Below are positions 9,346 to 23,630 of a DNA stretch of 64,000 nucleotides, in pieces. Location of the stretch: NCBI RefSeq assembly GCF_009914755.1, contig NC_060933.1. One strand, given 5' to 3'. The stretch comes from the human T2T-CHM13v2.0 reference genome, Homo sapiens. How positions within the stretch are numbered: the first letter of the stretch is position 1; the number at the start of each line of letters is the position of its first letter. The position numbers and the translations under genes were made by a program. The notes under the pieces are model-generated. The model was not told the origin of the DNA. It saw only the letters and a program-made list of their open reading frames with translations, and made no database searches.

Positions 9346-9491
9346 CTGATAGCTTCTTCCACAGACTGGCCAATAATATTAGAAGAAGGACCTGGCTGAG
9401 ATAGTGGAGTCAGGCTTATCACCCACTTCACTGGCTTGTAGTACTCATCACTGGAACTTAATAGATAAAATAGTGTGGTCAGGAAAATTAT
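9346..9491 (-). CDS. TMEM245: TMEM245 coding exon (exon 14), 146 nt, [48 protein letters not shown](R)
   Basis: Acceptor gttttgcag|ATA, donor TCAG|gtaggg; phase 0-2; follows a short 141-nt intron. Confidence 0.95.
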
Positions 9492-9632
9492 CTGCAAAAC
9501 AAAGGACAACATCTCCTAAAAAAATCGTATTTGGAAACTATAGGAAGACAGACATCTGCAATTGCAAATGAAACCAGAAATATGCTTTAACAGGGAAGGA
9601 AATATGATGTGTACTTATCTATGTGGACGTAC

Positions 9633-9755
9633 CAGAGAGAGTACAAAATTGAGAAGGGCTGTCCCGCTGTAGAAGAGGATGGTCAAGAGTGTAGTGACAG
9701 TGGTGAACAGCAGGCTCACATTCCGGCTCATAACGATCCACAGAGACTCCAAGAT
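9633..9755 (-). CDS. TMEM245: TMEM245 coding exon (exon 13), 123 nt, [41 protein letters not shown]
   Basis: Acceptor cttcctcgtcag|ATC, donor CTG|gtacgt; phase 0-0. Confidence 0.95.
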
Positions 9756-10072
9756 CTGACGAGGAAGGAAAGCTGGATATCAGAACCAATCCTCATGAAA
9801 AAAGTTTCTAGAGCCATCTAGTGTGCTTTTAATACAGTGTTTTAGTACCATGAACTGAAAAGCTAAGAACTGAGGATTATTTCAAATGAAAATTAAAAAA
9901 AAAAAAGAAAAATCAACCAAAAACAGTTGTATACTCAATAGTAAAGAAAATAGTAAATCCACACCAAATAATATAGACAGCAATTAAAAACATCACTGTT
10001 ATAACATGGGAAAATATTTTACAATGAAATGCTAAATTTAAAAAACAGGATTAAAACATTTTATATATAATT

Positions 10073-10360
10073 GGTGGGGCATGGTGGCTCATGCCTGTAA
10101 TCCCAGCACTTTGGGAGGCTGAGGCGGGTGGATCACTTGAGGTCAGGAGTTCCAGACCAGCCTGACCAACATAGTAAAACCCTGTCTCTACTAAAAATAC
10201 AAAATTAGCCAAGTGTGGTGTGGTACATGCTTGTAATCCCAGCTACCTGGGAGGCTGAGGGAGGAGAATCGCTTGAACCCAGGAGGCAGGGGTTGCAGTG
10301 AGCCGAGATCCTACCATTGCACTGTAGCCTGGGCAGCAAGAGCAAAACTCTGTCTCAAAA
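10073..10360 (+). mobile_element. AluS element whose tail is a CA microsatellite
   Basis: Canonical Alu dimer. Confidence 0.93.
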
Positions 10361-10406
10361 CACACACACACACACACACACACACACACACACACACACA
10401 CACACA
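10361..10406 (+). repeat. (CA)23 microsatellite, (UG)23 in the pre-mRNA
   Basis: Direct reading. Confidence 0.97.
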
Positions 10407-10448
10407 TCATTGTAGATTATGTAAAAATCGCAAGCAGAGAAAAAATAT

Positions 10449-19165: not shown

Positions 19166-19416
19166 AGTCTAGGGGATGAGATGTCCGTGACAACAGACTG
19201 AGGATGGAATACTGACGCACCAGAGAGATAGGCAGGTTCTGCCATGGAGACTAACCATCAACTCACACTGACTTTTAGTGACCTGAGGCTTAAGGTTTTG
19301 CTGTTTTGAAATTTCCATGAATGAAATCCCACTGTGAATATAATCCTATCTAGTTGATGAGTCAATAAAAGGACTTTATTAGTTTACAACAGGAAACTTT
19401 AGCTAAAATAACTTAC

Positions 19417-19515
19417 CTTTACAAACCAAGAGTGATACAGTCTGTCCCAAAGTTCTAGTACTTGCTTTTCAATTACAGCAGTATTGTTCACCTTATCTCC
19501 TAGAATTTTATGGAG
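19417..19515 (-). CDS. TMEM245: TMEM245 coding exon (exon 11), 99 nt, [33 protein letters not shown]
   Basis: Acceptor tttttctag|CTC, donor AAG|gtaagt; phase 0-0. Confidence 0.95.
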
Positions 19516-20129
19516 CTAGAAAAAAACACAGATACGACGTGGTACAATATTTCAGGCAACAACAGAGTAAAATTAATATATGCTGGGTATTTACATTTGT
19601 TCCAAAGCAAACAAAAATGTTCCAGACTATTTATCTCTAGCCATATTACGTTCTTTCCTTAAATCTACTCCTGAGTATTCCCAGTAAATTTCCTTTCTCA
19701 TGTTTTTGCTTCTATTTTCTTTGCTCTATTCTTAGGTCTCTAAGAGAGCTACCTCACGCTATCAGAGAATGGTGCAAATGAAGCCATGATTGCTGACTTA
19801 TCTGATCTTACCTGTCCAGAGAAAAATCTTTCCCCTGTAATCCCAGTGACCTTCCATTATACATATGTCTCATGTTACATTTATCTCTATTATTAAGAAT
19901 TACCACAGAATTTTAAGTAAAATTTTAGGATGTTGGCTATAAACACAAATCCTTCCTCTATTTGCATGCTGAGAGATGTCCGGTCTCATTTACAATTGAT
20001 CAGACTGGCCCCGGGTTTGTGGAAATCAAGTACACTGAGACAACGTAACTTAGAGGAAGGCTATCATTATAAAATGTTGTCCCACTTAGTTATTATTAAA
20101 ACCATATTATAATATAAAAAACAATTTTC

Positions 20130-22483
20130 ACACTTTCAGAGGCTGAGGTGGGCAGATCGCTTGAACCCAGGAGTTTGAGATCAGCCTGAGCAACATGGCG
20201 AAACCCCATCTTTACAAAAATACAAAAAAATTACCAAGTGTGGTGGCGCATGCCTGCAGTCCCAGCTACTCAGGAGACTGAGATGAGAGGATCACCTGAG
20301 TCCAGGAGGTTGAGGCTGCAGTGAGCCGTGATCACGCCAACATGCTCCAGCCTGAGTAACAGAGTAAGACCTGGTCTCAGAAAAAAAAACAAAAACCCAA
20401 AGAATTTCTAGAAGTTTGTAGGCCCACTTCCTTAATACAATTGTTTCCATTTTTCTATTTCCTCTGCAACTTTCTGCCTATTTACATAGAGACAATTTAG
20501 AATTTTTTCTACTTCATTATAAACATTCAATCTTTAGCCTTCATCACTAACCTTCATCTTTAATACTTTTATATTAATTCATTACGTTCTGGTATTAGCT
20601 GATCATTACCCACTCTAAGGATATACAATAAATCCTTCTTTTTTTTTGAGATAGAGTCTTGCTCTGTCACCCAGGCTGAAGTGCAGTGGCGCGATCTCGA
20701 CTCTCATTGCAACCTCTGCCTCCCAGGTTCGAGCAATTCTCCTGTCTCAGCCTCCTGAGTAGCTGGGATTACAGGTGTGCGCCCCCACACCCAGTTAATT
20801 TTTGTATTTTTAGTAGAGATGGGGTTTCACCATGTTGGCCAGGCTGGTCTTGAACTCCTAACCTCAAGTGATCTGCCCACCTCAGCCTCCACAAGTGCTG
20901 GGATTACAGGCATGAGCCACCACGCCCACCCATGAATCCTAATTTTTAGTGTCATGAGTAACACTGCAATGAACATCCTTTTACATAGTTTTTAAGGATA
21001 TATATGGATGTTCATTGCAGGGTTACTTGTGACATAAATAAATGTACTGCAACCAAATAAAATGAGTTTTTGTTTTGTTTTTTTTGAGACAGGGTCTCAC
21101 TCTGTCACCCAGGCCGGAGTGCAGTGGCATGATCATGGCTCACTGAAGCCTGGACCTCCCAGACTCAAGCGATCCTGCCACCTAAGACAGCCAAGTAGCT
21201 GGGATCACAGGCGCACTGACACCAGACAGAGCTAATTTTCTTATTTTTTGTAGAGACAAGGTCTCACTATGTTGCCCAAGCTGGTCTGGGCTCAAGTGAT
21301 CCTCCTGACTCGGCCTCCCAAAGTGCTGGGATTACAGGCATGAGCCACCACACCCAGCCGAAAATGAGCATTTTAATGGCTCTTGCTATGCATTGGTAAA
21401 CTGACTTCTATAATAAGAAATATACCAATTAATGCTTTCTAAAATTACATAAATGACCCAATTTCCTCAAAGCCTTATGAACTAACTGGAAAATTTTTAG
21501 GGAATTTAACAGGTGTGAAATGTAGCCATTATTTATTATTTTCTTCTTTATTAATGAAAGGAGTGACCATTTTCCCACGTTAGTTTACAACATCTATTTC
21601 CTTACTCTTTGCCTATTTGATGCTGGCCTTACAGATATGTGAACCAGTTACTAGACATATTCAATGCAAACGTATCTGTTCATATTTGTTCCTTTATATT
21701 TGATTTATTCATAAACTGAAAACAAAATATTCAATATAATAAAGCCATTTGGCCAGGCATCGTGGCTCATGCCTTGTAATCATAGCACTTTGGGAGGCCA
21801 TGGTGGAAGGATTGCGTAAGCACAGGAGTTCGAGACCAGCCTGGGCAACATGGTGAAACCACGTCTCTATAAAAACAGAAAAATTGGCAGGGCATGGTGG
21901 TGCATGCCTGTAGTTCCAGCTACTCAGGAGGCTGAAGTGGTAGGATCACTTGAGCCTAGGAGGTGGAAGTTGCAGTGAGCTGAGATCACGCCACTGCACT
22001 CCAGCCTGGGCAACAGAGCAAGACTCCCTCTCCACAAAAAGAAAAAAAAAACTACACATCACTGAAACACAAGTACTGTTGGTGGTGCCTGATATGCCTC
22101 TGCATATGAGAGGCAACCAAGCATGAAGCATAGTCAGAACATCATTTGAGAGCCATCTAATTTGAGGTAAACAAGCTCATCTAATTTTTTTTTCTTTTTT
22201 TTGAGATGGAGTTTCTCCGTCTCTGAGAGTAGAGTGCAGTGGCATGATCTCGGCTCACTGCAACCTCTGCCTCCCGAGTTCAAGTGATTCTCCTGCCTCA
22301 GCCTCCTGAGTAGCTCGGATTACAGGCGTGCGCAACCACGCCTGGCTAACTTTTGTATTTTTAGTAGAGACCAGGTTTCACCATGTTGGTCAGGCTGGTC
22401 TCGAACTCTTGACCCCATGATCCGCCGCCTGCCTTGGCCTCCCAAAGTGCTTGGATTATAGGCGTGAGCCACCACGGCCAGCC
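20130..22483. mobile_element. Alu cluster: (+)20130..20395, (-)20638..20930, (-)21067..21359, (+)21751..22051, (-)22185..22483
   Basis: Five recognisable Alu dimers in mixed orientation. Confidence 0.9.
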
Positions 22484-23539
22484 TGATTCCATATATGTGT
22501 ATACAGCGTATCTTCCATTATATTATTTTTTTAGATTTTGTTTTTGAATTTTCAATATGGAATCACATACTAATATATTTTTCTAGGCACAAGTCTTACT
22601 GCAACAAATCCTGTCGATTCTTACATAATCCTAATTATTTCAGTATACTAAAAGTGCAAATTACCTTTATTCCTACAGGCAAAACTAGGGAGGGAAAGAA
22701 TATCCCAAATCCATATGGTGGAATCTAATCCTTAACTGTGCTGCCTTTCCTCTATCATTCATTTCCCCTTCACAAAGCTCCCTCCACTTCAGTCAAGATC
22801 ATTTCCTCAAGCACACTCCTGTCTCAGCATCTCAATCATCTCTTCAAGCACACTCCTGTCTCTGCATCTTGGCTCACACAAATACCCTTCTTAAAATCCA
22901 CTCTTCCTTGATCTGCCATTCCTTCAAGGTTTATCTCAAGTGCCACATCAAAAGCACTTAATCCAGTTCTGGGCACACACTGCGAGCATGCTACAGTAGA
23001 AACAAAGGATTTGAAGTTAAGCTTCAGTTTCAAACCAAGCTCTGCAATTTACTACACGACCACTGGGAACTGACTCAGCCTTGCTGAGTCTTGTTTCCTC
23101 ATCTGCAAAGCAGGCAAAATAATTCATACTGCAGGCTTCTTAGAAACAGTAAAAGAAAAAAAAACAAATATTAAATGAAAATAACTGGAAACTGCCAAAG
23201 ACAGTTATCAGCAGACAATAAGATTTAATATGCATTAATACCTTTTTCTCTACAAAGCCTTATTTGACTACCCAAACCAAGTGATCATTCTGTCCTAACT
23301 CACAAGTAATGAATCACATCTATCTTGAAAAAGTACATGACCAACCTCTCAGATTGTTCAGGGTACTACCCCTATTCAATGTGATCTTTCAAAAGATTTC
23401 ATTGTATGTTGCTTACCTGTTTATTTAAGCCTATTTACTGCTGTGAATAGCATTTCTACTTATGTTTTATCAAAGCAACAAGCAACCACCAGTAAAGACC
23501 CTGAAAAGAGAAAGCCACAAAGAAAGTTTCTTCCCTTAC

Positions 23540-23630
23540 CTTGTGAGTTATCCATTCTCGTCCATACTGATACACGTTGTTAGCCGCAGAATTCAGGGCT
23601 CTTTGGACTACCTGAGCCTCAGGAAGCCAA
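23540..23630 (-). CDS. TMEM245: TMEM245 coding exon (exon 10), 91 nt, [30 protein letters not shown]
   Basis: Within ORF 23456..23686; acceptor ttacattag|TTGG, donor AAG|gtaagg; phase 2-0. Confidence 0.95.

What the first reader, a model, noticed from the sequence alone, without database searches (positions are those of the whole stretch)
9346..23630. Exons 10-14 would back-splice into a 591-nt circle with an endless, stop-free reading frame
Seen: 91+99+132+123+146 = 591 nt = 197 codons. Exon 14 ends in phase 2 (ATC AG) and exon 10 starts in phase 2 (T TGG), so the back-splice reads Ile-Ser-Trp in the native frame with no stop. An in-frame AUG exists (IVMSRN in exon 13). The block is bracketed by complementary Alus: (+) 8608..8870 vs (-) 23838..24148, and (-) 8280..9155 vs (+) 25235..26130. 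I recall a TMEM245 circRNA with this genomic span, but that is unverified memory. Inference: a candidate for rolling-circle translation into concatemeric hydrophobic membrane protein. The back-splice donor is also the donor of the miR-32 intron, so circle formation, linear splicing and Drosha cropping could compete.
Basis: partly seen in the sequence, partly recalled or inferred. Interest (0 to 1): 0.78.

Follow-up and report, generated by a model that had tools for sequence, protein, structure and literature searches.

The report
Known TMEM245 circle with endless frame
Five coding exons of human TMEM245 do join into an already catalogued circular RNA (hsa_circ_0003965) whose reading frame has no stop codon, but this is common among circles made of coding exons and nothing I could reach shows that this one is translated.

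Summary
The sequence observation holds. Exons 10-14 are 91+99+132+123+146 = 591 nt, all with AG/GT borders. The native frame runs round the circle with 0 stops and reads Ile-Ser-Trp at the junction. There is one in-frame AUG, at 9729-9731.

The circle is real and known. Published brain tables list a TMEM245 minus-strand circle spanning exactly 14,285 nt as hsa_circ_0003965. It is rare there: 4 nanopore junction reads, and 7 back-splice against 146 linear short reads. Intron coverage averages 2.5 nt, so the 141-nt intron is not retained.

The endless frame is not special. 25 of 66 contiguous exon blocks in this window are multiples of three, and all 25 are stop-free. One study reports host-frame endless ORFs in 14% of human circles.

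I found no evidence of translation. Its supplements, which list mass-spectrometry hits, do not name TMEM245.

The flanking inverted Alus exist, but they are several elements with competing partners inside their own introns.

Verdict: a known, low-abundance circular RNA. Rolling-circle translation is an untested possibility with a low prior.

The parts
23540..23630 (-). TMEM245 exon 10 (91 nt). Its 3' splice site (AG at 23631-23632) is the back-splice acceptor.
   Evidence: The upper end of hsa_circ_0003965 matches it.
19417..19515 (-). Exon 11 (99 nt, a multiple of 3)
16258..16389 (-). Exon 12 (132 nt, a multiple of 3)
9633..9755 (-). Exon 13 (123 nt, a multiple of 3). It holds the only in-frame AUG and the start of the hydrophobic stretch.
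9729..9731 (-). The only in-frame ATG of the circle (circle nt 347). It has G at -3 and A at +4.
9492..9632 (-). Intron 13 (141 nt), with in-frame TAA and TAG. Retaining it would end the endless frame.
   Evidence: Mean intron coverage was 2.5 nt in the 4 nanopore reads.
9346..9491 (-). Exon 14 (146 nt). Its 5' splice site (GT at 9344-9345) is the back-splice donor. An AAGAAG hexamer lies at 9353-9358.
   Evidence: Other catalogued circles share this donor.
8608..8853 (+). Alu-like element in intron 14, 492 nt from the donor. It is inverted relative to 23847-24151.
   Evidence: (83.6% over 201 nt)
8280..8567 (-). Alu-like element in intron 14. It is inverted relative to the (+) Alus of intron 9 and to its own neighbour 8608-8853.
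8892..9156 (-). Alu-like element nearest the exon 14 donor (189 nt away). It has the same orientation as the Alu nearest the acceptor.
23847..24151 (-). Alu-like element in intron 9, 216 nt upstream of the exon 10 acceptor
25234..25530 (+). Alu-like element in intron 9
25839..26127 (+). Alu-like element in intron 9. It is the best same-intron partner of 23847-24151 (81.3% over 294 nt).
5292..5361 (-). mir-32 hairpin in intron 14, 3,984 nt downstream of the shared donor
   Evidence: RF00666, 103.9 bits; abstract and introduction of PMC6403515: miR-32 lies in intron 14

Best explanation
The block is the exonic circular RNA already catalogued as hsa_circ_0003965. It forms when the 5' splice site of TMEM245 exon 14 is joined to the 3' splice site of exon 10. 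It is one of several alternative circles from this Alu-rich gene. Base-pairing between inverted Alu elements in introns 9 and 14 probably helps it form; that step is inferred. Its stop-free frame follows arithmetically from cutting a run of in-frame coding exons whose total length is a multiple of three. It is not a sign of selection for coding. At the levels seen in brain, the circle is most likely a minor product that is translated little or not at all. Its effect on linear TMEM245 mRNA or on miR-32 output would be small.
For: Shown here or in tables I read:
- Exact exon lengths, splice sites and frame.
- A circle of identical span (14,285 nt), strand and gene, flagged 'exon_match' and named hsa_circ_0003965 in the supplementary tables of PMC8355340 (column headers).
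- The hg19 offset derived from the 24-nt microexon agrees within 2 nt.
- An independent hg38 circle starts at the same exon 14 boundary. It spans 410 nt, which equals window 9346-9755.
- Abundance in brain is low: 4 nanopore junction reads, against 35 and 14 for other TMEM245 circles shown in the same table. Short reads give 7 back-splice against 146 linear reads.
- Mean intron coverage is 2.5 nt, so intron 13 is spliced out in those reads.
- The stop-free frame is a base-rate property: 25 of 66 blocks, all 25 stop-free. 14% of full-length human circles have a host-frame endless ORF (passages of PMC9242994).
- Introns 9 and 14 hold 8 and 7 Alu-like elements, giving 34 inverted pairs. That is the most of any of the 66 blocks.
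- The name hsa_circ_0003965 appears only in expression lists and reviews: atrial fibrillation tissue and hepatocellular carcinoma serum.
- 15 of 15 papers that hold both 'TMEM245' and 'circRNA' were listed. The passages I read in 8 of them, and the titles and abstract openings of the rest, do not mention its translation.
Against: - Fan et al. 2022 report that circles with endless ORFs are over-represented among circles with junction peptides: about 50% of hits against about a quarter of ORF-bearing circles. An endless frame may therefore raise the odds of detectable translation.
- The circle carries an in-frame AUG with a purine at -3.
- It also carries one AAGAAG hexamer, a motif that study found active in another circle.
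- The tryptic peptide across the junction would be 37 residues long by my count from the output. Its absence from shotgun proteomics is therefore weak evidence.
- The low counts come from one brain sample. Reviews report differential expression in atrial tissue, so other tissues may hold more.
- I could not query circAtlas, TransCirc or riboCIRC.
Confidence: 0.8

Rival explanations
1. Rolling-circle translation. Ribosomes start internally at the exon 13 AUG and travel round the 591-nt circle without meeting a stop. They make one lap or more of a 197-residue, 22.6-kDa unit, a two-helix hydrophobic hairpin followed by about 150 mostly hydrophilic residues. Synthesis ends by drop-off or by a frameshift into one of the stop-rich other frames.
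For: - The endless frame and its single in-frame AUG.
- Any skipping of internal exons 11 or 12 keeps both.
- An AAGAAG hexamer lies 8 nt before the junction, and there are 16 DRACH motifs.
- There is precedent for endogenous circles with endless ORFs: circPSAP, circPFAS and circABHD12; circEGFR, circNFIB and circTau 12->10.
- An even number of membrane helices per lap would keep the topology consistent between repeats (my inference).
Against: - No junction peptide, footprint or polysome datum for this circle in anything I could read.
- Very low abundance.
- The frame property is expected by chance.
- 6 other AUGs open short dead-end ORFs.
- The motifs used as 'for' are frequent by chance. A given hexamer is expected about 0.14 times in 591 nt (my arithmetic).
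- Translation of circles in general is disputed, and plasmid assays can give artefacts (reference 67 and the title of reference 75 as cited in PMC11724312).
Confidence: 0.07
2. A non-coding regulatory role: the circle binds microRNA-loaded Argonaute or other proteins, acting as a 'sponge' or scaffold.
For: - A sister circle that uses the same donor (exons 13-14, hg38 9:109050282-109050692) appears in a supplementary table of a study of AGO2-IP-enriched circRNAs in T-ALL cell lines. A circTMEM245 was validated as RNase R-resistant there.
- Two reviews attribute a network role in atrial fibrillation to hsa_circ_0003965.
Against: - The AGO2 data concern another isoform.
- The atrial fibrillation link is a differential-expression and pathway inference reported second-hand. 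I did not see the primary paper.
- The abundance is too low for stoichiometric sponging (my inference).
Confidence: 0.08
3. A cis-regulatory trade-off: back-splicing at the exon 14 donor competes with linear splicing and with Drosha cropping of mir-32 in intron 14, so that forming the circle tunes TMEM245 mRNA and miR-32 levels.
For: - The donor is shared, and mir-32 lies 3,984 nt downstream in the same intron.
- At least four catalogued circles use this donor.
- That back-splicing competes with linear splicing in general is established knowledge, which I recall and did not check here.
Against: - 7 back-splice against 146 linear reads for this circle.
- Intronic hairpins are generally cropped co-transcriptionally and independently of splicing (recalled, not checked).
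- After back-splicing the downstream intron is still present in the transcript and can still be cropped (my inference).
Confidence: 0.05

Closest known systems
hsa_circ_0003965 (circBase) = hsa-TMEM245_000069 (circAtlas) = HSA_CIRCpedia_62166
   Same: Same gene, same strand, same 14,285-nt span, and flagged as matching exon borders. This is the finding itself.
   Different: Nothing differs. In the texts I could search, the catalogue entry carries no statement about its reading frame or its translation.
Other TMEM245 circles: hsa_circ_0004109, hsa_circ_0004010, hsa_circ_0087912, hsa_circ_0087893, hsa_circ_0137666, and the exon 13-14 circle of the T-ALL study
   Same: They share the exon 14 donor or the exon 10 acceptor, and they come from the same Alu-rich introns.
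   Different: By my mapping, hsa_circ_0004109 is exons 10-12 (322 nt), hsa_circ_0004010 is exons 9-14 (674 nt) and the T-ALL circle is exons 13-14 (269 nt). None of these lengths is a multiple of three, so none has an endless frame (exon lengths). The brain tables show some of them with more reads.
circEGFR (exons 14-15, 249 nt), a rolling-translated circle from a membrane protein gene
   Same: An endless ORF in the host frame, taken from a membrane protein gene (Table 2 of review PMC11724312).
   Different: For circEGFR the review lists mass-spectrometry and ribosome evidence and a membrane-associated product. For the TMEM245 circle there is none.
circPSAP, circPFAS and circABHD12 (endless-ORF circles of Fan et al. 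2022) and circTau 12->10
   Same: Coding-exon circles whose length is a multiple of three and that have no stop. The AAGAAG hexamer that mattered in circPFAS also occurs here.
   Different: Those have junction peptides and/or tagged reporter products. circTau lacks an AUG and needs editing, whereas this circle has one AUG. TMEM245 is absent from the supplement files of Fan et al. that are held.

Membership tests
Exonic circular RNA made by back-splicing | Reads across a junction that joins a downstream 5' splice site to an upstream 3' splice site at annotated exon borders | tested here: met
   Published tables give 4 nanopore and 7 short-read junction reads at chr9:111812562-111826847, flagged 'exon_match' and found by both CIRI2 and find_circ. 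I mapped this to the window by the identical span and by a microexon anchor, not by aligning hg19 sequence.
Exonic circular RNA made by back-splicing | Canonical AG and GT at the two back-splice sites | tested here: met
   AG before 23630 and GT after 9346 on the minus strand
Exonic circular RNA made by back-splicing | Resistance to RNase R, or other proof of circularity | not testable with these tools
   RNase R validation in print concerns a circTMEM245 that the supplement lists as the exon 13-14 isoform, not this one.
Exonic circular RNA made by back-splicing | Inverted repeats in the flanking introns (usual, not obligatory) | tested here: met
   34 inverted Alu-like pairs lie between intron 9 and the window's part of intron 14, the most of the 66 blocks. 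35 of the 66 blocks have at least one. The name 'Alu' is my recognition of the sequence; no repeat library was used.
Rolling-circle-translated circular RNA (endless ORF) | Length a multiple of three with no stop in one frame | tested here: met
   591 nt with 0 stops in the native frame
Rolling-circle-translated circular RNA (endless ORF) | A usable start codon in that frame | tested here: met
   One ATG at 9729-9731, plus 16 in-frame CTG/GTG codons
Rolling-circle-translated circular RNA (endless ORF) | An element that recruits ribosomes without a cap (IRES-like element or m6A) | tested here: inconclusive
   One AAGAAG and 16 DRACH motifs. Such motifs are frequent by chance and their activity cannot be tested here.
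Rolling-circle-translated circular RNA (endless ORF) | Ribosome association, or a peptide across the junction | tested here: inconclusive
   Not found in the 4 held supplement files of PMC9242994 or in the 1 small held file of PMC7938571. The databases themselves, and PMC8567535, could not be reached.
Rolling-circle-translated circular RNA (endless ORF) | Multi-lap (concatemeric) protein product | not testable with these tools
   Needs a bench experiment

The most novel reading that the evidence does not exclude
In tissues where hsa_circ_0003965 is more abundant than in the brain sample (for example atrium), ribosomes start at the exon 13 AUG and circle the RNA. They would make one-lap or multi-lap chains of a TMEM245 module, a two-helix membrane hairpin plus a loop of about 150 residues. 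These chains would insert into membranes and either disturb the full-length protein or be degraded quickly. That would make this the first endless-ORF circle shown to produce a repeating multi-pass membrane protein.
Probability: 0.05. Interest if true: 0.55.

Novelty: already known. Interest (0 to 1): 0.15.

Why it matters
If the circle were translated, it would add a membrane-protein example to the short and disputed list of endogenous rolling-circle products, and it would tie a circle to the host intron of miR-32. As it stands, the value of this check is negative. The circle is already catalogued. Its stop-free frame is what one in three coding-exon blocks gives. The accessible data show a rare species with no sign of translation. 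A scan that flags 'stop-free circle' from sequence alone would flag about a third of all possible coding-exon circles.

Tried and rejected
- Pfam on the single-exon translations of exons 12, 13 and 14 gave nothing meaningful. The best hit had E = 0.06 and was far below its cut-off. The spliced 197-residue product was not sent to any search or folding tool, because a joined sequence may not be typed.
- A search of paper main texts for the hg19 and presumed hg38 border coordinates gave one unrelated chance match.
- 'circTMEM245' and its spelling variants occur in 2 papers. One turned out to concern the exon 13-14 isoform. The other matched on circC9orf5; my look-up there for TMEM245 found only an array table entry, hsa_circRNA_104855.
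- Translation evidence. The 4 held supplement files of Fan et al. 2022 had no hit for TMEM245, C9orf5, hsa_circ_0003965 or 111812562. The only held riboCIRC supplement (20,639 characters) had no hit and is too small to be the full list. Chen et al. 2021 (Mol Cell) is not held under its DOI or its PMC id.
- I did not count the full list of IRES-like hexamers from Fan et al.; only the two hexamers named in its main text were counted.
- Lariat-driven, exon-skipping origin: the gene table given with the finding lists no transcript that skips exons 10-14, so I did not favour this route. It is not excluded.
- The absolute RNAduplex energies look inflated: shuffled partners still give about -123. I use only the ranking.
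- Rfam at gathering threshold did not label the Alu-like elements.

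
Full report
**1. The observation**

On the minus strand the five exons are 23540-23630, 19417-19515, 16258-16389, 9633-9755 and 9346-9491. Their lengths are 91, 99, 132, 123 and 146 nt. Each has an AG acceptor and a GT donor. Joined, they make 591 nt = 197 codons.

The 11 window exons are open in one frame only. In that frame exon 10 begins with one base that completes a codon, and exon 14 ends with two spare bases. 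Joining the end of exon 14 to the start of exon 10 therefore restores the native frame (Ile, then Ser across the junction, then Trp). One lap has 0 stops. The other two frames have 10 and 20 stops.

The circle holds 7 ATGs. Only the one at circle nt 347 (window 9729-9731, exon 13) opens the endless frame. The other six open ORFs of 1 to 39 codons.

Intron 13 is 141 nt and has in-frame TAA and TAG codons. Retaining it would put 2 stops into each lap.

Rfam places mir-32 at 5292-5361 on the minus strand (103.9 bits), 3,984 nt downstream of the exon 14 donor. A paper on the miR-32 promoter states that miR-32 lies in intron 14 of TMEM245 (abstract and introduction of PMC6403515). This fits the exon numbering.

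**2. Is it more than chance?**

No. Among the 66 contiguous blocks that can be cut from the window's 11 coding exons, 25 have a length that is a multiple of three. All 25 are stop-free in the native frame, and 21 of the 25 contain an in-frame Met. A circle cut from in-frame coding exons cannot contain a native-frame stop except at the new junction codon.

Exons 11, 12 and 13 are each multiples of three. Every internal exon-skipping variant therefore stays endless, but the variants that lack exon 13 lose the only AUG.

**3. Does the circle exist?**

Yes, and it is catalogued. The supplementary tables of Rahimi et al. 2021 (PMC8355340; I read passages and table headers, not the whole files) list chr9:111812562-111826847 (hg19, minus strand, TMEM245, 'exon_match') as hsa_circ_0003965 = hsa-TMEM245_000069 = HSA_CIRCpedia_62166.

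Its span is 14,285 nt, exactly that of window 9346-23630. The hg19 offset derived from the 24-nt microexon (chr9:111848276-111848300 = window 45062-45085) agrees within 2 nt. I did not align hg19 sequence, so the mapping is by coordinates.

In the nanopore table for human brain the circle has 4 junction reads. Mean read coverage is 483 nt, and mean intron coverage is 2.5 nt, so those reads do not retain intron 13. The held copy of that file was cut when stored.

In the short-read table it has 7 back-splice reads against 146 linear reads and was found by both callers.

Other TMEM245 circles in the same tables have similar or higher counts: 35 nanopore reads for hsa_circ_0137666, and 14 each for hsa_circ_0087912 and hsa_circ_0087893. 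These are only the rows the look-ups displayed, not a full census.

A study of T-ALL lists a further circle, hg38 9:109050282-109050692. It has the same exon 14 border and a 410-nt span, so it is exons 13-14. A circTMEM245 there was RNase R-resistant, and the study concerns AGO2-IP-enriched circles.

Exon 14's donor is thus a shared back-splice donor for at least four catalogued circles.

**4. What print says about it**

The name hsa_circ_0003965 occurs in 4 papers of the library; I read passages in 3 of them and saw the fourth in the search listing only.
- Two reviews cite a study of atrial appendages in atrial fibrillation. I did not see the primary paper.
- One paper lists it as reduced in the serum of hepatocellular carcinoma patients.
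- A third review appears only in the search listing.

15 papers hold both 'TMEM245' and 'circRNA'. I read the matching passages in 8 of them. None speaks of translation of a TMEM245 circle. The border coordinates occur in no relevant main text. Supplements across the library cannot be searched as a whole, so entries in other tables may exist.

**5. The Alu bracket**

I used one full-length element (3815-4125) as a BLAST probe. It carries a poly-T head and the reverse complement of the typical Alu start, so it is an antisense copy. The probe found 42 hit regions in the window, and I treat them as 43 elements. 'Alu' is my recognition of the sequence; no repeat library was used.

The window's part of intron 14 holds 7 of these elements and intron 9 holds 8.

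The second 'pair' is really a tight (-)(+)(-) triple at 8280-9156 and two separate (+) copies at 25234-25530 and 25839-26127.

Introns 9 and 14 give 34 inverted pairs, the most of the 66 blocks. 35 of the 66 blocks have at least one, and 12 of the 66 have both an inverted pair and a length divisible by three.

The bracket is not exclusive.
- The Alus nearest the two splice sites (8892-9156 and 23847-24151) have the same orientation.
- 23847-24151 pairs better with 25839-26127 in its own intron (81.3% over 294 nt, 280 bits) than across the exons (205 bits).
- The RNAduplex ranking agrees.

Many competing pairings fit a gene that makes many low-level circles. That such competition lowers the yield of a circle is established knowledge, which I recall and did not check here.

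**6. Would it be translated?**

From the AUG, one lap is 197 residues and 22.6 kDa, with GRAVY 0.11. It has one hydrophobic stretch at about residues 5-45, long enough for two membrane helices, followed by about 150 mostly hydrophilic residues. The junction is at codon 82. 'Hydrophobic membrane protein' overstates this.

The circle has one AAGAAG hexamer 8 nt before the junction and 16 DRACH motifs. Both kinds of motif are frequent by chance.

Base rates come from Fan et al. 2022 (PMC9242994; passages read).
- 14% of full-length human circles have a host-frame endless ORF.
- The ratio of finite to endless ORFs is about 3.4.
- About half of the 990 junctions with spectra came from endless-ORF circles.

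However, none of TMEM245, C9orf5, hsa_circ_0003965 and 111812562 occurs in the 4 supplement files held for that paper. That absence is weak evidence, because the tryptic junction peptide would be 37 residues long (my count).

A recent review notes that translation of circles has been controversial. It also lists a paper on artefacts of overexpression assays; I saw only that paper's title. The riboCIRC supplement that is held is too small to be informative. Chen et al. 2021 could not be read.

**7. The miR-32 idea**

It is true that the back-splice donor is the donor of the intron that hosts mir-32. This holds for every circle ending at exon 14.

With 7 back-splice reads against 146 linear reads for this circle, any trade-off would be small. 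After back-splicing, the downstream intron is still part of the transcript and can still be cropped. Both points are my inference.

**8. Verdict**

The proposed mechanism is possible but unsupported.

The thing itself is already known (hsa_circ_0003965), and its endless frame is an ordinary consequence of exon arithmetic. I put about 0.8 on 'a known, minor circle that is not meaningfully translated'. I put about 0.07 on real translation round the circle. The remainder goes to non-coding or cis-regulatory roles.

Noticed in passing
window 1443-1544 (-): An Rfam Y_RNA match (RF00019, 45.5 bits against a gathering score of 38, full model length) lies inside TMEM245 intron 14. It is not in the gene table supplied with the finding. 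It is probably a Y RNA-derived pseudogene.
   Followed up: no
window 45062-45085 (-): The 24-nt exon 7 is listed as a known neural-up microexon (C9orf5/TMEM245, hg19 chr9:111848276-111848300) in supplement files 7 and 8 of PMC8355340. [quoted passage not shown]
   Followed up: partly
window 9344-9346 (-): The exon 14 5' splice site is a shared back-splice donor. Catalogued circles run from it to the acceptors of exon 13, exon 10 and exon 9, and to an acceptor outside the window at hg19 111870850.
   Followed up: partly
window 8280-9156: Three Alu-like elements in (-)(+)(-) order lie only about 40 nt apart and end 189 nt from the exon 14 donor. They could fold on each other within the intron; they are 73-76% identical in inverted orientation. 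This would compete with pairing across the exons.
   Followed up: partly
window 9633-9755, 16258-16389, 19417-19515 (-): Exons 11, 12 and 13 are each multiples of three. All 7 internal exon-skipping variants of the circle therefore stay stop-free, but the 4 variants without exon 13 lose the only in-frame AUG.
   Followed up: yes
window 46408-49987 and 32495-39896: The Alu-like elements have a one-sided orientation in two introns: all four are (+) in intron 5 and all three are (-) in intron 8. By contrast, introns 4, 6 and 13 have none.
   Followed up: no
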